Positions 1,922-12,474 of a stretch of DNA of 64,000 bases are shown here, in pieces (positions within the stretch are counted from its first letter, which is position 1; each line of letters starts with the position of its first letter). This DNA comes from Escherichia phage vB_EcoS_HdH2. The translations under genes and the position numbers were made by a program. Under the pieces are notes generated by a model. It ran no database searches. It worked only from the letters and a program-made list of their open reading frames with translations, and had not been told where the DNA came from. The stretch lies in sequence record NC_048748.1; one strand, 5' to 3'.

Positions 1922-3595
1922 TTACTGTACAAAGAATTTACCGTTCTTAAAGTCGATCAAAGTACGCTGGCCGTTCGCATAGGTAATAACATGCGTTTGC
2001 GTCCAGCTTGACGCGCCAACGTTGTAACCCATATCCAGACTACCAGACACGCCGGCAGTGTATACGCCGCCGTAAATGCTGGCGGTGTGAGTGTGCCCCG
2101 TGTTTAATTTGCCCAATTTCTTAAATTGCTTCGGATTGCCACGGCTCCCGTTAATGCCATTGTGACCGTGTACGCCGCATTCAATGCCTGCAATTTTAAA
2201 TGATTGGTCAGTGGTCAGGAAAATAGCGTTAAATTCACAACCTGCAACCTTGCGCAGCGCATAATCTAGCACGTTGAAAGTATCGTCTTTTTCTGCAATA
2301 GCTCCGTAAATCGCAGCATTAAGGCGGTGATATAGTTCCGCGTTGGCTGGATCGTCTTTAATGTTAGCATTACGATCATCAAGCCAACGGGATAACGCCA
2401 GATCATGGTTAGATTCAACAATGATCGTTTGAGCAAAATCGCGCTCCATTGATTCCAGTACGCGCCCGGTATCGATCAAATCATCAATAACCTTATCACG
2501 TCCGGCGGCGTATTGTTTTGCTAGGAATACACCAGACGCACGATTATGATGATTGCGTGATGTAAAATCATGCACGTCATGCACAAACTGATATTTTGGC
2601 TTCAGAATATCAACAAGCCCGTAGGTGTCACCATGCCCCCACGACGCAGCGGCGCACTCCTCATCTAATTTTTCAGCGTGAATATCGCCATATTGTAAAC
2701 CTAAAACGTGCCCCGTTGTTTCATAGCATCCGGCGGGAGTGGCGCAAATATTCAAATCGTAAAACATGCCGCTTTCGTCCATCGTTTCAAGCTGGCGAAC
2801 AAAAAATTCCCCGTCCTCGTCGAACTCAACGACAAGCGCACCAAAGTTATGTAGCGCCTCGGCCTTTTGCCCTGCTTTCTGCTGGATGTAGTTTTTAAGC
2901 GTTGCCGTGCCCGTTGAATACATGCGGCGCACTACTTCACCTTTTAAAGCTGGCACGCTTTCGGCGGTGATTTTAGCCGCCCCGATTGCCAGACCTTCCA
3001 GATTAAGCGCCGTTGCAGTTTCAGCGAATCCAGAAAGCGGATAATCTGCGGTAGGTAACACGTTAATCTCCGCCATGAAAGCAAAACGGCGATTATTTAA
3101 AAACACGTTTTTGCTGCAAATATATTTATCAAATGCAGAATCATATTTGATTCCGTCCGCGCCCTCACCATTTTGGAATCCGTTTTTATTATAAATATAC
3201 TTAGAAACAAGCAAATCAGCGCCGATAAACTGGGCATATTGTTCAAGCGAGGCTAAAAAGTTTTTATGCGGGAAAGTATTATTCTGAATCGAGGTAATAA
3301 TAAAGCGTTTGCCTTGTTTTACTTCCCAGCTTTCCACCGTGCTAGAAATAACTCCGGCGGCTTCAGGGCGGTCATCGTTTTTAATAGCTTTTACAGTTTT
3401 TGCCGCTTTTGGTTTCGCTGGTTTATTTGCTTCCAGCCAATCACAAATAGCGGTGGAATGCTTTGGAGTATCGTAAACCGCTTTCGAAATATCGTCGCAT
3501 ACTTCCAGTTTAGTAGCGCGCAGACGTTTACCATAGAAATTGAAGTCAGCGGCAAGGTTCAGGATAACGGTTTGTTTTTCTGCGGAAATAATCAT
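1922..3595 (-). CDS. A1: Pre-early protein A1 (metallophosphoesterase-like)
   Basis: 557 aa; GDIH and HGHNG...GHTH phosphoesterase-like motifs; size and position match T5 A1. Confidence 0.7.
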   Translation of the reverse strand: MIISAEKQTVILNLAADFNFYGKRLRATKLEVCDDISKAVYDTPKHSTAICDWLEANKPAKPKAAKTVKAIKNDDRPEAAGVISSTVESWEVKQGKRFIITSIQNNTFPHKNFLASLEQYAQFIGADLLVSKYIYNKNGFQNGEGADGIKYDSAFDKYICSKNVFLNNRRFAFMAEINVLPTADYPLSGFAETATALNLEGLAIGAAKITAESVPALKGEVVRRMYSTGTATLKNYIQQKAGQKAEALHNFGALVVEFDEDGEFFVRQLETMDESGMFYDLNICATPAGCYETTGHVLGLQYGDIHAEKLDEECAAASWGHGDTYGLVDILKPKYQFVHDVHDFTSRNHHNRASGVFLAKQYAAGRDKVIDDLIDTGRVLESMERDFAQTIIVESNHDLALSRWLDDRNANIKDDPANAELYHRLNAAIYGAIAEKDDTFNVLDYALRKVAGCEFNAIFLTTDQSFKIAGIECGVHGHNGINGSRGNPKQFKKLGKLNTGHTHTASIYGGVYTAGVSGSLDMGYNVGASSWTQTHVITYANGQRTLIDFKNGKFFVQ

Positions 3596-3692
3596 AGTAA
3601 TAAAGCTCCATTAAAGGGATTAAAAACGTTTGTTATTGGCAAATATTGCCAGATATAACGCCGCTTATTTACAGCGTTATAACTTGCAATAT

Positions 3693-3938
3693 TTAACTAA
3701 TCGGCATAAGGCTAGAACTAACACCACAAGCAACGGCGGCAATAAAGCAAAGTAAGCCCAACCGCTTTGCTAATTTAGATTTACGTTTAAAATAATATGA
3801 ATCTAAATCATTTTGAAAATAAGCGAACAATAATGAGGCCGCTACAATAAATAAGCCTAAAATTAGCGATTCAGTGGGGTAAAAGATCATTTTAATAACT
3901 CCAGTCAAAGGGAAATTATAGTGGGGAATATTCCCCAC
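3693..3938 (-). CDS. small membrane protein
   Basis: 81 aa with two hydrophobic segments. Confidence 0.4.
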   Translation of the reverse strand: MGNIPHYNFPLTGVIKMIFYPTESLILGLFIVAASLLFAYFQNDLDSYYFKRKSKLAKRLGLLCFIAAVACGVSSSLMPIS

Positions 3939-8472: not shown

Positions 8473-8817
8473 ATGGTAATTTATGAGGGCAACCGCTTTG
8501 TTACTAATTGCCGCCCGGCATTATTAGCAAACTACTTAAACCAGCTTTCACCTGAATATAAGGGCGTTGTTAATATTTACGAGGGAAAAGCGCATTATAA
8601 GATTAATGCGGTCGTTGCCCGTGAACTAGCATTTCAATTTTTGACCTTCGCATCGTGTGATATTCAGGTCATGGGTGAAGCATTAATAGCAGAAAATGAA
8701 GACGATTTTATTAATATTTTCCGCAAGGTATGCACCGAGCGCCTGATCATGAAAGGTGTATATATTCAATCAACGGCGGAAAGTATTGAAACGGCTTTTC
8801 GAAAGGTGGCACAATGA
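8473..8817 (+). CDS. hypothetical protein
   Basis: 114 aa; gggagg RBS. Confidence 0.5.
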   Translation: MVIYEGNRFVTNCRPALLANYLNQLSPEYKGVVNIYEGKAHYKINAVVARELAFQFLTFASCDIQVMGEALIAENEDDFINIFRKVCTERLIMKGVYIQSTAESIETAFRKVAQ

Positions 8818-8918
8818 GATTATATATTTTCGCGGGTAATGTTGAGGCTGCAAATGATTCCGCTGGTGGCGATAATGTTCGCCACTATTGGCAAAAATAT
8901 ATTTACTAGGAGCTATAT

Positions 8919-9114
8919 AATGGGCAAGAATATTATTGTGACCAAAATCAGTACAATGGTTGACGTTTTTTACGTGCCCGATACGCCAGAAAACCGGCAA
9001 GCGGTCGAGCGGGGCGATTATGGTAGCGTTATTTATGATCACGATGGCTATTATCGGCATTTGGTCGATTCCTATGGGGAGGAGGAGAAGATCACGCATC
9101 GACTACCAGACTAA
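8919..9114 (+). CDS. hypothetical protein
   Basis: ORF 8839-9114 trimmed to the ATG after taggag. Confidence 0.4.
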
Positions 9115-9191
9115 TAATCACGGGGCGCAACTATCAGGGAGTGCCCCAATTCCCAAATGAGAATCATTCTCATTTGACCGCGCCCGTGATG

Positions 9192-9251
9192 GTTAGCCCG
9201 CTAACGATTAGGGTGTTACGTGTTGCCTTGTGTGATCGTTAGCGGGCTAAC
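9192..9251. repeat. 17-bp inverted repeat hairpin (gttagcccgctaacgat / atcgttagcgggctaac), each arm internally palindromic
   Basis: Read directly. Confidence 0.6.
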
Positions 9252-9373
9252 TAATTTTTAAGCCTCCTCCAATTTTGCCCTTGTTTTAGTATCCCCACCA
9301 AAATTAAACGCGTTAGAATGCGATTCAGGACGTTTTAGCGGTATATTAGAATTATTCACTACATAGGAATACT

Positions 9374-9413
9374 GTATAAATATACAGTAGGATAAGCTGT
9401 GGATAAGTCTGTT
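9374..9413. repeat. Right 40-bp inverted repeat with DnaA boxes (TGTGGATAA at 9399-9407 and 9472-9480)
   Basis: Reverse complement of 6308-6347. Confidence 0.65.
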
Positions 9414-9675
9414 AATAACGCCTCAAAATGGCTAGGATTCTGTCAAGTCAAATCGTGCTGTTAATAAGTCTGTGGATAACTTAAATAACAGTGTTTCTCA
9501 CTTCCATTCTTAAACGAGAATGATTCTCATTTGCATTCCACTGTCTAACCGATAATCATTTCCTTTCTTAAATGAGAATCATTTCACTTTTTGAATAGTT
9601 CTCATTTCACTTCTTAAATGAGAATCATTATCATTCGCATTCCACTTCTTAAATGATAATGATTCTCATTCAAAG

Positions 9676-9695
9676 TCGCAGGGCAATTGCCCTGC
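9676..9695. repeat. Perfect 20-bp palindrome cgcagggcaattgccctgcg
   Basis: Read directly. Confidence 0.6.
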
Positions 9696-9700
9696 GCTTT

Positions 9701-10438
9701 TGTGCAAATCCGACATGTGCTCCAAGGGTTACGTGCTGGCGTGTATGTGCAAATCCGACAATTTTTGGTAGTGTGCAAATCCGACCCGAAAAATTTATAA
9801 ATTCGTGAGAGTGACGAATCTGTCTCCTAAAAACTCCAGCAATCACGAACTGCGTTCGAATCCTGTGGAATTAGCTAGAGTATGTGCAAATCCGACATGT
9901 GTTGAGCTGTGCGAATCCGATGAAATTTTTGTGACTTCGATGAGAGGGTGTGTGATTGTATAGGTTTGAGGAGAAGATGAGAGAGCGAGAAAAATTTGGG
10001 AGGCTAGAAGGATGTGGGTGCAGGATTGGTGCGGAGCACCTGATTTGCGGGGATTTTGGGGAAGAGTTGAGAAGATTTGGGAAGATTTGAGATAGGTGCA
10101 GAAAAAGCGAAATTTTATTAGCTAAATGGGGCAAAATAGCTTGACAAGTGAAAATTCTTGTGGCTCTAAAAACTCAGGCAATCATGGGCCTTCGGCCCGA
10201 AATAATGCTGCCATTTTCAAGAGATTATATGTTCCTAAAAACTTAGGCGTTTGTGCAAATCCGACCATAAATTTCTAGAAATGCAGTGTGCAAATCCGAC
10301 AGTAATTTCTGGAAATGTGTTTTCAAAAAATGTCTCCTAGAAATAACCGCCCTCCCTATAACCGCCCTGTATAGGAAAACCGGCCTAGGATATTTATAGT
10401 AGATGAGAAACTGCCCTAGAACATGTGCAAATCCGATT
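9701..10438 (+). repeat. Array of at least 7 copies of TGTGCAAATCCGA(C/T) in non-coding DNA
   Basis: Copies at 9701, 9746, 9772, 9883, 10252, 10287, 10425 (degenerate 9908); one extra copy inside a CDS at 12127. Confidence 0.65.
9960..10130 (+). repeat. Polypurine (G/A-rich) tract, almost C-free on the plus strand
   Basis: Strong strand composition asymmetry; ORF 9871-10134 here is low-complexity and probably spurious. Confidence 0.5.
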
Positions 10439-10811
10439 TAAAGTTTAGTGTAAACTCTAGAGTTAGTGCTCAACTATTCCTAGAAACTTAGGAGTCTAGA
10501 AGAAAGTGTTGTGCCATCCTAGCAGAAGAGCGGCAACAGGTGTATCATCTTGAACATAGATATTGCCTTTAAAAATATTTAAATAATATAAAGAAAAAGA
10601 GACCCCCAATTTCATGAGAGTCTCTCCTGGGGGCGCGTGATTAATTACGTGAGTACTCATGCCGTCATACCGCTGTTGCTAGGCCGCAAGCTATACGAGA
10701 CATTCGTGTAATAATCATCGCCCCTAGAGTTAATCAACTAGAGTAGTTGTTAATCTATGAGATTATTATAACATGTTTGGGTATGAGAATGCAAGAACTT
10801 TTTGTTAACTT

Positions 10812-11525
10812 TTATTCCTCCTTCTTGGATTTGAGTTTGATACCTAAGGATGCGAAGTAGATATAAGTTGCTAAATAGGAAGCAGTGGATCCTGTATCAC
10901 CGTAATCCATAGTTCCACGAGCTGCTCTAGTATACTCAGGAGCATAGTTTAATATCGTGTAACTTGGCATTCCTAGCGACTTACATAGCTCTTTAAATGT
11001 ATCCTCGTACTTATGGCACATGAAATGCACAGCGTTTTCTAGGGGCGTTAACTCTAGATCTTTATGGAGAGCTACAGTCAAACTCGCTAGCATTGTGCCA
11101 ATCCCACGATAAACTTCATCTTTAACTAGAGTAGGTTTCTCTTTTTCTAGTGGTGGAAGATGTGCATACTTACCATGTTTAAAAGGAATAAGATCTTCGC
11201 TAGCTAATGCTTCTTTAAATGATGCTTCCTTAAATCTTGGGAGATCTTCATCAATTAGAATATGAATAGCATTGGAAGAGAAACCTTTTGCTTCAGGATC
11301 TAAAGCCTTTAACGCTTTATTTACTTCCACATATGAACCTGACCAAACAACTTGTTTTGCATCCCGATCATACTTGATCTTTCCTTTATCCCACTTTGCA
11401 GGATAATGATCTCCTAAAAACATTACTGCATATTTTTCTTCATCAGTTAGCTGGGAAAGGCTCTTTTGTGTAGCACCACGTGCTAACTGGATAAGACGTT
11501 TTAATTTTTCAGCTTCTTTAATCAT
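10812..11525 (-). CDS. hypothetical protein
   Basis: 237-aa ORF; first gene after the repeat field. Confidence 0.5.
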   Translation of the reverse strand: MIKEAEKLKRLIQLARGATQKSLSQLTDEEKYAVMFLGDHYPAKWDKGKIKYDRDAKQVVWSGSYVEVNKALKALDPEAKGFSSNAIHILIDEDLPRFKEASFKEALASEDLIPFKHGKYAHLPPLEKEKPTLVKDEVYRGIGTMLASLTVALHKDLELTPLENAVHFMCHKYEDTFKELCKSLGMPSYTILNYAPEYTRAARGTMDYGDTGSTASYLATYIYFASLGIKLKSKKEE

Positions 11526-11869: not shown

Positions 11870-12474
11870 TAATTACCTCTTTTATCTTCATTAATAGCAG
11901 CTCCCAACGCCTCCATAATAGCATCCTCTAAACTTCCATGTTTACCAGGATTATTAAAATGAATAGTACAAACAGAACTCCTAGAAACTCCAGCATCCGC
12001 AGGTGCTACGCTTTTCATGTCAGATTCAAAAGCTTCTTGAGTATGTTTCAACTGTGCAGAAGGTCCATAATCTTCACCAACTCGATAGGACTGATTAGAC
12101 GACAGTGTACCACCACATGGAACATTGTGCAAATCCGACGTTATTTTAGGATTATTATTTAATAGTGCAATACCACTTTTTGACCATGGATCACTAACAG
12201 TGGTACTGGGGCGGTTCACCTCAGTCTTCACGAGTTTATAGCCAGCATCTATTAATGCGTTAATAAGGTTATCCGCTGGGATGCGAGCCGTGCCAAAAAT
12301 CTCACGAGCGTTGTTGAGCCTACCTTCAAAACCTTTACATGCTCTAATATTAGTGTGTGCAAAGGTTAGCTTCATAGATTTGAATTGTACAGTAGCAGTT
12401 AAATCTTTAAAGCTATAATCCCATGTATTCAGTTCATGGTCTGGTACTACTTGAATAGATTGTTGTGTAAACAT
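11869..12474 (-). CDS. hypothetical protein
   Basis: 201 aa; contains one TGTGCAAATCCGAC copy. Confidence 0.5.
   Translation of the reverse strand: MFTQQSIQVVPDHELNTWDYSFKDLTATVQFKSMKLTFAHTNIRACKGFEGRLNNAREIFGTARIPADNLINALIDAGYKLVKTEVNRPSTTVSDPWSKSGIALLNNNPKITSDLHNVPCGGTLSSNQSYRVGEDYGPSAQLKHTQEAFESDMKSVAPADAGVSRSSVCTIHFNNPGKHGSLEDAIMEALGAAINEDKRGN

What the first reader, a model, noticed from the sequence alone, without database searches (positions are those of the whole stretch)
9960..10130. Strand-asymmetric polypurine tract
About 170 bp of plus-strand sequence is almost entirely G and A (gaggagaagatgagagagcgag ... ggggattttggggaagag). A tract like this can form triplex or R-loop structures; it sits at the boundary between the repeat field and the first early genes.
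Basis: seen in the sequence. Interest (0 to 1): 0.35.

Follow-up and report, generated by a model that had tools for sequence, protein, structure and literature searches.

The report
G-rich tract at T5 repeat end
The flagged stretch is a real, very cytosine-poor (not truly polypurine) non-coding segment that forms the last ~200 bp of the long terminal repeat of a T5-like phage; it is kept in composition across the whole phage family, probably helps make or package the DNA end (or stops stray transcription), and cannot form a triplex.

Summary
The window is the left 64 kb of a T5-like phage (Tequintavirus) and starts at the physical left end. The compositional anomaly at 9940-10140 is real and is the most extreme in the window: GC skew 0.75 against 0.455 for the next highest, and 6% C. 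It is not a polypurine tract. It holds 24% T, its longest purine-only run is 10 nt, and it has no homopurine mirror repeats or canonical G4 motifs. Triplex and R-loop readings are therefore not supported.

By homology, the tract spans -227 to -27 from the right boundary of the direct terminal repeat (window 10166|10167, ...GTGGCTC|TAAAAAC). That boundary recurs in T5, other Tequintavirus records, Klebsiella IME260 and Pectobacterium My1.

The tract belongs to a conserved module:
- GTGCAAATCCGA repeats on both sides.
- A G-rich arm with 10-nt phasing of T-runs and G-runs.
- A small two-stem hairpin.
- A sequence-conserved 57-bp core that abuts the boundary.

The arm varies in sequence but keeps its composition even where it no longer aligns.

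My best reading (0.35) is the cis-acting arm of the signal that generates or packages the right terminus. The main rival (0.25) is a Rho-utilisation site for leftward early transcripts, because that RNA is the most C>G-biased and least structured in the window. Neither function was tested here. The region is already annotated in T5 as iss / Repeat Region 3.

The parts
9702..9920 (+). Left field of five direct 'DR-D' repeats, GTGC(A/G)AATCCGA, at 9702, 9747, 9773, 9884 and 9909
   Evidence: 16 matches at 2 mismatches or fewer against 4.1 expected. Eight copies with 1 mismatch or fewer cluster at 9702-10436, all on the + strand. They are annotated as direct repeat D in T5 AY587007. Similar repeats are present in Klebsiella, Pectobacterium and Vibrio T5-like phages.
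9940..10109 (+). G-rich, C-depleted arm, the core of the finding. T/A-runs alternate with G-runs about every 10 nt. The sequence is variable but the composition is conserved.
   Evidence: Searches give the composition. Searches give the periodicity: W and identity peak at period/lag 10.0 in every lineage, and the strongest segment of this signal (151-nt window starting 9991, running on into the core) is in the top 0.17% of 151-nt windows; 64% of columns vary among 24 relatives. GC skew is 0.55-0.78 in 28 distinct relatives; the composition is kept in Klebsiella and My1, where the sequence no longer aligns.
10019..10049 (+). Two-stem hairpin or palindrome inside the arm. The outer stem is (T)GCA/TGC(G), the inner stem is GGTGC-GGA-GCACC (10028-10040). 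It holds many of the tract's cytosines.
   Evidence: it is the only structure in the MFE fold of the tract (-5.1 kcal/mol, z -1.7); the same architecture is the MFE in 19 of 22 Markadamsvirinae variants. Pairing is kept through changes (GGCGT..ACGCC; GGTGT..GCACC wobble; loops of 3-5 nt). My1 has an unrelated 7+5-bp hairpin at the same distance from the end. Klebsiella has a GC palindrome cluster.
10053..10091 (+). Two tandem copies of the motif ATTT(T)GGG(G)AAGA(G)TTGAG (T5 'direct repeat A', copies 2 and 3)
   Evidence: AY587007 annotation, mapped to the window; the sequence is shown.
10110..10166 (+). Sequence-conserved terminal core, AAATTTTATTAGCTAAATGGGGCAAAATAGCTTGACAAGTGAAAATTCTTGTGGCTC, which ends at the inferred boundary of the terminal repeat
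   Evidence: only 26% of columns vary; this is the only part that still aligns by BLAST to Klebsiella Sugarlandvirus phages (query 171-246). My1 keeps AAATATTATTCGC...GGGGGCAAAAGGATTGACAAATGAAAAAGTTC.
10166..10167 (.). Inferred right boundary of the direct terminal repeat, which is also the right physical end of virion DNA in the right-hand copy: ...CTTGTGGCTC|TAAAAACTCAGG
   Evidence: Both T5 records place the end of the left repeat here. Seven of 10 records holding two repeat copies end exactly at GTGGCTC. In IME260 the two copies stop being identical exactly here. The My1 boundary is at the homologous spot, followed by AAAAAC. This is not directly verifiable for this phage, because the right repeat lies outside the window.
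10186..10198 (+). GC hairpin GGGCC-TTC-GGCCC, 20 nt beyond the boundary
   Evidence: Klebsiella phages have a different hairpin (CACGGTG-ACA-CACCGTG) at the same place.
10253..10436 (+). Right field of three DR-D repeats (10253, 10288, 10425), in the unique region beyond the boundary
   Evidence: T5 annotation of DR-D copies 7-9.
10595..10628 (-). Intrinsic-terminator-like hairpin plus T-run that ends the leftward early transcription unit. The tract lies about 430 nt further downstream for any read-through RNA.
   Evidence: 14-pair stem followed by TCTTTATATT.
9677..9696 (+). GC hairpin CGCAGGGCAATTGCCCTGCG, homologous to T5 palindrome J and the site of the major 7.9% single-strand nick
   Evidence: hairpin; the T5 nick at 9748/9749 (NC_005859) maps to window ~9697.

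Best explanation
The tract is the variable, strand-asymmetric arm of a conserved non-coding module at the inner (right) end of the T5-type long direct terminal repeat. In the right-hand repeat copy, that is the last ~230 bp of the virion DNA.

Module order:
1. GTGCAAATCCGA iterons.
2. About 170 bp of G-runs and T/A-runs phased one helical turn apart, with a small two-stem hairpin in the middle.
3. A 57-bp sequence-conserved core.
4. The repeat boundary (GTGGCTC|TAAAAAC).
5. A GC hairpin.
6. More iterons.

I think the module is most likely the cis-acting signal used to generate and package the right genome end. In this reading the core positions the cut at a fixed distance. The phased arm is a bendable landing pad with little ability to fold, on which the packaging or end-processing proteins (small terminase or a partner) assemble. 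Its position would be analogous to lambda cosB next to cosN.

Shown here: the anatomy, the position relative to the boundary, and the conservation of composition, phasing and hairpin.

Inferred, not shown:
- The right end is packaged first. This follows from the left end being injected first.
- Terminase acts at this site.
- The arm binds protein.
For: (1) Position.
- The window starts at the same left terminus as T5.
- The end of the T5 left repeat in two independent records maps to window 10166.
- Seven of 10 two-copy records end exactly there.
- In the Sugarlandvirus IME260 the two copies stop being identical exactly at GTGGCTC.
- The Myunavirus My1 boundary is homologous.
- The tract therefore lies 27-227 bp inside a boundary conserved across four genera.

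(2) Two-part conservation.
- The core has 26% variable columns and still aligns to Klebsiella phages.
- The arm has 64% variable columns, yet keeps GC skew 0.55-0.78 in 28 distinct relatives.
- The arm stays G-rich and C-poor in Klebsiella and My1, where it is unalignable.

(3) Helical phasing.
- The W/S power spectrum and the identity autocorrelation peak at 10.0 nt in the window, T5, Epseptimavirus, IME260, My1 and Cody. Flanks lack this signal.
- The tract is in the top 0.17% of 151-nt windows in the 64 kb.

(4) A positionally conserved hairpin with pairing kept through sequence change.

(5) Iterons flank the module on both sides of the boundary.

(6) The left boundary of the repeat in T5, IME260 and My1 is also preceded by a conserved block. 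A G-rich, C-poor stretch lies 75-220 nt upstream of it. In My1 that stretch is three tandem 20-nt repeats resembling window 9965-9990.

(7) The tract is non-coding.
- The frame that stays free of stop codons differs between relatives.
- Two frames are often open at once, as expected for a G-free strand.
- There are no PHROG hits and no Rfam family.
Against: - There is no experimental or bioinformatic link to terminase. Nothing in the searched literature defines a T5 packaging signal.
- Double-stranded DNA binding does not by itself require strand asymmetry. Depletion of C on one strand points rather to a single-strand (RNA or ssDNA) property.
- The arm is the least sequence-conserved part of the module, which is unusual for a specific protein site.
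- There is no detectable sequence similarity between the left-cut and right-cut contexts in T5.
- The G-rich stretch upstream of the T5 left cut lies inside a CDS and is not the local skew maximum.
- The relatives share ancestry, so conservation of phasing and composition is not many independent observations.
- The boundary for this phage itself is inferred by homology.
- Three records annotate other repeat ends: Kenya-K38 at -28, chee158 at about -210, Stitch at +5.
Confidence: 0.35

Rival explanations
1. The tract is a Rho-utilisation (rut) site. It would act as a backstop Rho-dependent terminator for leftward early transcripts that read through the intrinsic terminator at 10628-10595. This would keep early transcription out of the terminal repeat, where it would be antisense to the rightward pre-early genes. 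It could also keep transcription away from the terminus signal.
For: - The leftward RNA of 9940-10140 is C 38%, G 6%, with C/G 5.8 and 55 YC dinucleotides.
- The two highest 78-nt C/G windows of the whole 64 kb on that strand are both in the tract (13.8 and 7.9, against 5.0 for the next).
- It is the least structured 150-nt RNA in the window (-9.4 kcal/mol, against a mean of -31.5 and a least-stable background of -14.3).
- Rut sites are defined by C>G bias, weak structure and an optimal length of 60-90 nt rather than by sequence (PMC12360218). That matches 'composition conserved, sequence free'.
- The tract lies in a convergent-transcription zone downstream of the last leftward early gene and its terminator.
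- The G-rich stretch upstream of the left repeat boundary could do the same job for leftward dmp-operon read-through from the right repeat.
- A central hairpin between two C-rich halves recalls lambda tR1 rutA-boxB-rutB (from my own knowledge).
Against: - There is no evidence that RNA polymerase reaches the tract. A strong intrinsic terminator lies 430 nt upstream of it, and no promoter-like site lies between them.
- The bias and the length (200 nt, 6% G) far exceed what rut function needs.
- It does not explain why the tract abuts the repeat boundary in four genera.
- It does not explain the sequence-conserved sub-blocks such as GGGTGTGTGATTGT.
- The G-T wobble variants of the hairpin pair only on the + strand, not in the leftward RNA.
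- No literature links T5 to Rho.
Confidence: 0.25
2. The tract matters for the two-step DNA injection. When first-step transfer pauses with about 9.65 kb inside the cell, the DNA still in the tail and at the portal would be roughly the segment that holds the tract and the repeat end. The tract would then be part of the brake or the restart signal.
For: - NC_005859 annotates the injection stop signal as 9140-10149, which covers most of the homologous tract.
- The tract lies 300-500 bp to the right of the estimated shear point (AY587007 9618, about window 9647). That is about one tail length of DNA. The tail length is my own estimate, not a tool result.
- Conservation of the whole non-coding region is noted as unexplained by Davison (bioRxiv 10.1101/866236).
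Against: - Davison places the stop signal left of the shear point, in the IRD'-spacer-IRC'/DRE cluster with DnaA boxes. He assigns no role to this stretch.
- No mechanism is known by which a portal or tail reads DNA sequence.
- The same tract sits at the extreme right end of the genome, where no pause is needed.
- It does not explain the strand asymmetry.
Confidence: 0.1
3. The tract serves as single-stranded DNA. After 5'-to-3' resection, or loss of the short terminal fragment of the nicked strand, the right end would expose a G/T-rich 3' tail that can hardly fold. That tail would invade the inner end of another left repeat to form concatemers or prime replication. A telomere-like end-protection role would be a variant of the same idea.
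For: - The G-rich strand runs 5'-to-3' toward the right end, which is the telomere orientation. It includes GGGGATTTTGGGG.
- The T5 nick homologous to window ~9697 would leave only a ~470-nt fragment of the other strand covering this end in the right repeat.
- Strand asymmetry implies a single-strand-level property.
- Hairpin wobble variants fit + strand folding.
- Klebsiella relatives have 10 canonical G4 motifs here.
Against: - The left terminus shows only a mild mirror-image bias (GC skew -0.1 to -0.4), largely explained by the dmp gene.
- There are no canonical G4 motifs in this phage or in T5.
- The tract stops 27 bp short of the end.
- The preference of recombinases for GT-rich DNA is recalled from memory, not tested here.
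Confidence: 0.08
4. The tract is a non-B DNA element (intramolecular triplex/H-DNA, or an R-loop-prone zone) that acts through that structure.
For: Strong purine/pyrimidine and G/C asymmetry: 69.6% purine and GC skew 0.75. G4Hunter reaches 1.44, the second-highest cluster in the window.
Against: - The longest homopurine run is 10 nt and there are no mirror repeats.
- 24% T interrupts the tract throughout.
- There are no canonical G4 motifs.
- R-loop formation needs rightward transcription. That is blocked by upstream terminator-like hairpins, and no promoter-like site fires rightward into the tract.
Confidence: 0.03
5. The A/T-phased DNA plus TTGACA (10141-10146) is a curved upstream region and UP element of a rightward sigma-70 promoter that straddles the repeat boundary.
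For: A perfect TTGACA is conserved in all lineages. AAATTTTATTA and GCAAAATAG upstream resemble UP-element subsites (my own knowledge). Phased A-tracts lie upstream.
Against: - The hexamer 17 nt downstream is TCTAAA, which lacks the essential A2 and T6. The scan does not call a promoter here.
- In My1 the corresponding hexamer is GGCGGA.
- No conserved gene lies downstream. The ATG of ORF 10126-10278 is absent in T5.
- In the right repeat copy the promoter would be cut in two.
Confidence: 0.05

Closest known systems
Bacteriophage T5 'Repeat Region 3' / annotated injection stop signal (iss) at the right end of the left terminal repeat (AY587007, NC_005859; Davison, bioRxiv 10.1101/866236)
   Same: It is a direct sequence homologue, 94.7% identical over 9925-10170. 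It has the same order of elements: nick site, DR-D repeats, DR-A copies 2 and 3, repeat end, more DR-D repeats.
   Different: In what I could read, the published descriptions list repeats and palindromes. They do not describe the C depletion, the 10-nt phasing, the hairpin, or the conserved core at the boundary. The proposed iss elements (DnaA boxes, IRD'-spacer-IRC', DRE) lie 300-600 bp to the left.
Lambda cos (cosN-cosB) and pac regions of pac-type phages such as SPP1: terminase small-subunit assembly sites with bent DNA next to the cut (from my own knowledge)
   Same: It is a ~200-bp non-coding region immediately inside the end that is presumably packaged first. It has helically phased motifs, a conserved block at a fixed distance from the cut, and flanking repeats.
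   Different: No terminase binding has been shown. There is no IHF consensus. The extreme single-strand base bias is not a feature of cosB or pac. T5 makes 10-kb direct repeats rather than cohesive ends or headful cuts.
Rho-utilisation (rut) sites, e.g. lambda tR1 rutA-boxB-rutB
   Same: On the leftward transcript the tract has C>G bias, minimal secondary structure, a length of at least 60-90 nt, conservation of composition rather than sequence, and a small hairpin between two C-rich halves.
   Different: It is much longer and more biased than needed. It sits behind a good intrinsic terminator. It is tied to the repeat boundary. Rho dependence is untested.
Herpes simplex virus 'a' sequence: G-rich, strand-asymmetric DR2 repeats between the pac1 and pac2 cleavage/packaging signals (from my own knowledge)
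   Same: It is a strongly strand-asymmetric G-rich repeat tract next to terminase cleavage signals at a genome terminus, in a virus with a related terminase.
   Different: There is no sequence relationship. HSV DR2 is a true polypurine/polypyrimidine tandem array, and this tract is not.

Membership tests
H-DNA / triplex-forming polypurine-polypyrimidine tract | Uninterrupted homopurine run of roughly 15 nt or more on one strand | tested here: not met
   The longest purine-only run in 9940-10140 is 10 nt. The tract holds 24% T and 6% C.
H-DNA / triplex-forming polypurine-polypyrimidine tract | Mirror-repeat symmetry of the homopurine tract | tested here: not met
   There are no homopurine mirror repeats with arms of 7 nt or more and spacer of 8 nt or less.
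G-quadruplex motif | Four runs of G3 or longer separated by loops of 1-7 (or 1-12) nt | tested here: not met
   There are 0 canonical motifs in the window and in T5, and G4Hunter reaches at most 1.44. Klebsiella IME260 has 10 (G4Hunter 2.24), so the property is not conserved.
T5 left-repeat terminal non-coding region (Repeat Region 3) | Sequence homology and the same order of annotated repeats | tested here: met
   94.7% identity to T5 over 246 bp. DR-A, DR-D, the nick site and the repeat end all map in the same order.
T5 injection stop signal (functional iss) | Lies at or left of the first-step-transfer shear point, so that it is at the cell envelope when transfer pauses | tested here: not met
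   The shear point at about AY587007 9618 corresponds to window ~9647. The tract starts about 300 bp further right. NC_005859 nevertheless draws its iss feature over most of it.
Terminase recognition / cleavage region (cos- or pac-like) | Adjacent to the mature genome end | tested here: met
   The tract ends 27 bp before, and the core abuts, the position homologous to the repeat and virion end in T5, six other records, IME260 and My1. For this phage the position is inferred by homology.
Terminase recognition / cleavage region (cos- or pac-like) | Bound by small or large terminase and required in cis for packaging | not testable with these tools
   There are no binding or genetic data. No paper found defines a T5 packaging signal.
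Terminase recognition / cleavage region (cos- or pac-like) | Helically phased motifs or intrinsically bent DNA | tested here: inconclusive
   The 10.0-nt periodicity is significant and conserved. Actual curvature was not modelled or measured.
Rho-utilisation (rut) site | C>G-biased RNA with weak structure, at least about 60-90 nt long | tested here: met
   The leftward RNA has C/G 5.8 over 201 nt. It holds the top two 78-nt C/G windows of the 64 kb and the least stable 150-nt fold in the window. The criteria are from PMC12360218.
Rho-utilisation (rut) site | Transcribed as untranslated RNA, with termination that depends on Rho | not testable with these tools
   It is untranslated if transcribed. 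It lies 430 nt beyond an intrinsic terminator. There are no transcript data.
Sigma-70 promoter (TTGACA at 10141-10146) | A -10 hexamer with A at position 2 and T at position 6, 16-18 nt downstream | tested here: not met
   TCTAAA in this phage, which the scan does not call. GGCGGA in My1.
Protein-coding gene | A conserved open frame and homologues | tested here: not met
   The minus-strand ORF 9871-10134 is expected on a strand with almost no G. Relatives differ in which frame is open, and two frames are often open together. There are no PHROG hits.
Known structured RNA (Rfam) | A match to a covariance model | tested here: not met
   There are only two sub-threshold chance matches in 8800-11200, neither in the tract.

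The most novel reading that the evidence does not exclude
T5-family phages mark both boundaries of their 10-kb terminal repeat with the same kind of bipartite signal. Each signal would be a G-rich, C-free, helically phased arm that cannot fold on either strand, followed within about 30-100 bp by a conserved block that fixes the cut. The strand asymmetry would be the functional property. For example, it could give an unstructured single strand for the nick-and-displace duplication of the repeat, or for loading of the packaging or flap-processing enzymes. That would be the first defined cis-element for how long direct terminal repeats are made.
Probability: 0.2. Interest if true: 0.7.

Novelty: new member of a known kind. 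Interest (0 to 1): 0.42.

Why it matters
How T5-type phages recognise and cut their concatemers, and how they duplicate a 10-kb terminal repeat, is still unknown. So is the role of the conserved non-coding DNA at the repeat end.

This analysis locates a compact, family-wide module right at the repeat boundary. The module has a sequence-conserved core and an arm conserved only in composition and phasing. It also gives two concrete, cheap-to-test functions: a packaging or terminus signal, or a Rho backstop terminator.

There are two practical consequences:
- The conserved ...GTGGCTC|TAAAAAC junction gives annotators a sequence landmark for the repeat end. Deposited T5-like genomes currently place that end inconsistently.
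- The G-rich tract may itself distort coverage-based estimates of the repeat end.

Tried and rejected
- **Triplex/H-DNA:** rejected. The longest purine run is 10 nt and there are no mirror repeats.
- **G-quadruplex as the conserved property:** rejected. There are none in this phage or T5 and many in Klebsiella relatives.
- **Rfam families:** none found.
- **Promoter scan:** nothing in the tract. The TTGACA-17-TCTAAA reading was rejected on the -10 hexamer and on My1.
- **IHF consensus:** none near the tract.
- **Coding potential:** rejected.
- **Shared sequence between left-cut and right-cut contexts in T5:** Smith-Waterman scores were no better than shuffles.
- **Mirror-image C-rich bias at the left terminus (telomere-like symmetry):** only weak, and explained by the dmp gene.
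- **RNAalifold on a MAFFT alignment:** it did not recover the hairpin, because loop-length differences misaligned the 3' arm.
- **Covariance model of the hairpin:** it found only the Tequintavirus type, so it added no independent covariation. Hairpin support therefore rests on per-sequence folds and on inspection.
- **Test for selection against new C alleles in the arm:** not distinguishable from the flanks (C share 0.16 against 0.12-0.25).
- **Terminal inverted repeat ACAAG/CTTGT in the core:** not conserved in T5.
- **Literature:** searches for a T5 packaging signal or T5-Rho link found nothing relevant. Davison 2015 is not held.
Full report
**What the window is**

BLAST of 9300-10700 finds 473 phage records, nearly all Demerecviridae. 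The best hit is Salmonella phage Kenya-K38 at 93.5%. The tract alone (9925-10170) matches 508 records, 431 of them over at least 80% of its length. T5 itself is 94.7% identical. The first bases of the window (TGTCCAGTGG...) correspond to the first bases of T5 AY587007 (TGTCCACTGC...). The window is therefore the left 64 kb of a T5-like genome and begins at the physical left end.

**The observation**

Positions 9960-10130 contain A54, C11, G65 and T41. That is 69.6% purine, but also 24% T, so 'almost entirely G and A' is wrong. What is exceptional is the lack of C together with the excess of G.
- Among 171-nt windows, the region has the highest purine fraction in the 64 kb (0.713, against mean 0.484 and sd 0.049).
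- It has the lowest C fraction (0.058, against 0.088 for the next lowest).
- It has by far the highest GC skew (0.753, against 0.455 for the next highest).
- The longest purine-only run is 10 nt, and there are no homopurine mirror repeats.
- There is no canonical G-quadruplex motif, and G4Hunter reaches 1.44.

The tract is real, spans roughly 9940-10140, and is far beyond chance. It is a C-depleted G/T/A tract, not a polypurine tract.

**Where it sits**

In T5 the homologous DNA lies in the 1.2-1.7-kb untranslated 'Repeat Region 3' at the right end of the left terminal repeat.
- NC_005859 annotates the injection stop signal (iss) over 9140-10149, a major nick at 9748/9749, and the repeat end at 10219.
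- AY587007 annotates direct repeat D copies on both sides, direct repeat A copies 2 and 3 inside the tract, and the repeat end at 10139.
- Both T5 repeat ends map to the same place in the window...CTTGTGGCTC|TAAAAACTCAGG, 10166|10167.

An exact-pattern scan of viral contigs returned the right-hand repeat copies of five genomes. Each ended exactly 105 nt after TTGCGGGGATTTTGGGG, which corresponds to window 10166. Reading the record ends directly, 7 of 10 two-copy records end at GTGGCTC. Stitch ends 5 nt later, Kenya-K38 28 nt earlier, and chee158 about 210 nt earlier, at the start of the tract.

Two more distant genera agree with the T5 position.
- In Klebsiella phage IME260 (Sugarlandvirus), the two repeat copies are identical up to GTGGCTC and differ immediately after it.
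- The odd 20-nt tail of the IME260 record equals the 20 nt that precede its annotated right repeat. The record therefore looks shifted by 20 nt.
- In Pectobacterium phage My1 (Myunavirus; A1 protein 65% identical), both repeat copies end at ...TTGACAAATGAAAAAGTTCGGGGGGCGG|AAAAAC. That is the homologous spot.

The tract thus occupies about -227 to -27 from a repeat boundary conserved across four genera. In the right-hand repeat copy it is almost the last DNA of the virion. For this phage the boundary is inferred by homology, because the right repeat lies outside the window.

**Anatomy of the module**

From left to right:
- The homologue of the T5 nick site and palindrome J hairpin (9677-9696).
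- Five GTGC(A/G)AATCCGA repeats (9702-9920).
- The G-rich arm (9940-10109), with a two-stem hairpin at 10019-10049 and two DR-A motif copies at 10053-10091.
- A 57-bp core (10110-10166) that ends at the boundary.
- TAAAAAC, then a GC hairpin (10186-10198).
- Three more GTGCAAATCCGA repeats (10253-10436).
- An intrinsic-terminator-like hairpin for the leftward early genes (10628-10595, minus strand).

The GTGCAAATCCGA repeat is strongly over-represented, with 16 matches against 4.1 expected. Its copies with 0 or 1 mismatch are confined to this zone, except for one at 12127. Similar repeats occur even in a Vibrio T5-like phage.

**Conservation pattern**

Among 24 Markadamsvirinae sequences:
- The core has 26% variable columns.
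- The right flank has 35%.
- The left flank has 53%.
- The arm has 64%.

The arm is the most variable part in sequence. Even so, all 28 distinct relatives keep GC skew 0.55-0.78, 10-24 C per 200 nt, 5-14 G-runs of three or more, and 0-1 C-runs. In Klebsiella phages only the last 76 bp still aligns by BLAST. The DNA upstream of that is again G-runs separated by A/T. In My1 the last 300 nt have GC skew 0.42-1.0. Composition is therefore conserved where sequence is not.

**Phasing**

The A/T-versus-G/C pattern has its spectral peak at 10.0 nt in several lineages.
- Window: p = 0.000-0.006 for the central 130-160 nt.
- T5: p = 0.018.
- Three Epseptimavirus genomes: p = 0.000.
- IME260: p = 0.001 for the last 160 nt.
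- My1 and Vibrio phage Cody: peaks at 10.0 and 9.75 nt with p of about 0.05-0.07.
- Three flanking non-coding controls have no 10-nt signal.

The best tract window ranks in the top 0.17% of all 151-nt windows. Identity autocorrelation peaks at lag 10 in all right-end tracts, with z of 2.2-3.8. The repeating unit is a T-run followed by a G-run (TTTGRG). These lineages share ancestry, so these results are not independent tests.

**Hairpin**

The only structure in the MFE fold of the G-rich strand across the arm (9940-10089) is a two-stem hairpin (-5.1 kcal/mol, z -1.7).
- The same architecture is the MFE in 19 of 22 variants.
- Pairing is kept through GGTGC/GCACC to GGCGT/ACGCC, through a G-T wobble, and through loops of 3-5 nt.
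- The outer stem changes from CGCA/TGCG to GCAGC/GCTGC in Epseptimavirus.
- My1 has an unrelated 7+5-bp hairpin at the same distance from the end.
- Klebsiella phages have a GC palindrome cluster.

The number of independent compensatory events is small. RNAalifold on a MAFFT alignment and a covariance model added nothing.

**What it is not**

- It is not coding. The 87-aa minus-strand ORF is what a strand with almost no G produces. The open frame differs among relatives and two frames are often open together. There are no PHROG hits.
- It is not a known RNA family.
- It is not a convincing promoter. TTGACA at 10141-10146 is followed at 17 nt by TCTAAA, and by GGCGGA in My1.
- It has no IHF site nearby.

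**Explanations**

Adjacency to a conserved genome end, a conserved block abutting the cut, helical phasing and flanking iterons point to a cis-acting signal for making or packaging the right end. T5 injects its left end first. By the usual last-in-first-out rule, the right end would then be packaged first. That would put this module where lambda has cosB. This step is inference, not a tool result.

A lead from outside the window supports the reading. The left repeat boundary in T5, IME260 and My1 is also preceded by a conserved block (...AAGATTACACATGAAGGTG| in T5, ...AAAGTTACACATGGATGGGG| in My1).
- A G-rich, C-poor stretch lies 75-220 nt upstream of it, with 100-nt skew of 0.50, 0.64 and 0.69. 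The 99.9th percentile of this window's background is 0.50.
- In My1 that stretch is three tandem copies of GTTTGCGTGAGATGAGAGAA.
- The background is imperfect. In T5 the stretch lies inside a CDS and is not the local maximum.

Several points count against the packaging reading.
- Double-stranded binding does not need single-strand base bias.
- The arm is the least sequence-conserved part.
- The left-cut and right-cut contexts share no significant sequence.
- Nothing ties the region to terminase.

The strongest rival takes the strand bias at face value. The leftward RNA across the tract is C 38% and G 6% (C/G 5.8).
- It holds the two highest 78-nt C/G windows of the 64 kb (13.8 and 7.9, against 5.0 for the next).
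- It is the least structured 150-nt RNA in the window (-9.4 kcal/mol, against mean -31.5).
- These are the accepted hallmarks of Rho-utilisation sites, which are defined by composition rather than sequence (PMC12360218).
- The tract lies downstream of the last leftward early gene, in a convergent-transcription zone.

Against the rival:
- It sits 430 nt behind a good intrinsic terminator.
- It is far longer and more biased than needed.
- A rut function would not explain its fixed position next to the repeat boundary.

The two readings are not exclusive. The core could serve the cut while the arm serves termination.

Minor rivals are a role in the injection pause, a recombinogenic or protective 3' single strand, non-B DNA, and a promoter UP region.
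- Injection pause: the tract lies right of the shear point, and Davison assigns the stop to elements further left.
- 3' single strand: the bias at the left end is only a weak mirror image.

**Comparison with what is known, and verdict**

The DNA is a close homologue of a region sequenced and annotated in T5. In the sources available to me, its extreme C depletion, phasing, hairpin and boundary-abutting core are not described, and no function is assigned. I file it as a new member of a known, functionally unassigned element.
- The triplex/R-loop interpretation is not supported.

My confidence is 0.35 in the terminus or packaging reading and 0.25 in the rut reading.

Noticed in passing
window 9702-10436 and 12127-12138: GTGCAAATCCGA ('DR-D') occurs eight times on the + strand around the repeat boundary. 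There is one further exact copy inside a minus-strand ORF at 12127. Similar repeats are present in Klebsiella, Pectobacterium and even Vibrio T5-like phages, so this looks like a deeply conserved protein-binding iteron of unknown partner.
   Followed up: partly
L043 (T5 109500-112500), L063 (IME260), L064 (My1): the junction of the unique right end and the right terminal repeat: The left boundary of the repeat is preceded by its own conserved block (...AAGATTACACATGAAGGTG| in T5, ...AAAGTTACACATGGATGGGG| in My1). A G-rich, C-poor stretch lies 75-220 nt upstream of it. In My1 that stretch is three tandem 20-nt repeats, GTTTGCGTGAGATGAGAGAA.
   Followed up: partly
L057/L058/L063 (Klebsiella phage IME260, KX845404): The record appears shifted by 20 nt. 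Its last 20 nt (GCTTAGAGGGTTGGGGGGTG) follow GTGGCTC and are identical to the 20 nt just before its annotated right repeat. The two annotated 10,277-bp 'identical' repeats actually differ in their last 20 nt.
   Followed up: yes
L001/L048 (Kenya-K38), L044/L049 (chee158), L052 (Stitch): Deposited terminal-repeat ends differ from the T5 position by -28, about -210 and +5 nt. The chee158 end falls exactly at the start of the G-rich tract. The cause may be coverage bias over the tract in coverage-based estimates.
   Followed up: partly
window 10186-10198: The GC hairpin GGGCC-TTC-GGCCC lies 20 nt beyond the repeat boundary. Klebsiella phages have a different hairpin (CACGGTG-ACA-CACCGTG) at the same place, so the structure rather than the sequence seems to be kept.
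   Followed up: partly
window 3511-3760: This region has the strongest 10-nt A/T periodicity in the whole 64 kb (power 13.4). It lies near the end of the A1 gene and the small ORFs upstream of A2.
   Followed up: no
window 9400-9480: DnaA-box-like sequences (TGTGGATAA and TGGATAAGT variants, paired) are present, as described for the T5 iss region by Davison.
   Followed up: no
window 9476-9650: The DRE/DRC repeat block is G-poor on the + strand (about 9% G, GC skew -0.43). On the rightward transcript it would be a C>G region facing the tract across the DR-D field.
   Followed up: no
L054 (Shigella phage SSP1 contig), homologue of window ~10000: A run of 12 G sits inside the tract, so homopolymer expansion is tolerated there.
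   Followed up: no
L055/L056/L046 (Klebsiella Sugarlandvirus), last 130 nt of the repeat: There are ten overlapping canonical G-quadruplex motifs on the strand running 5'-to-3' toward the genome end (G4Hunter 2.24). They are absent from T5 and from this phage.
   Followed up: partly
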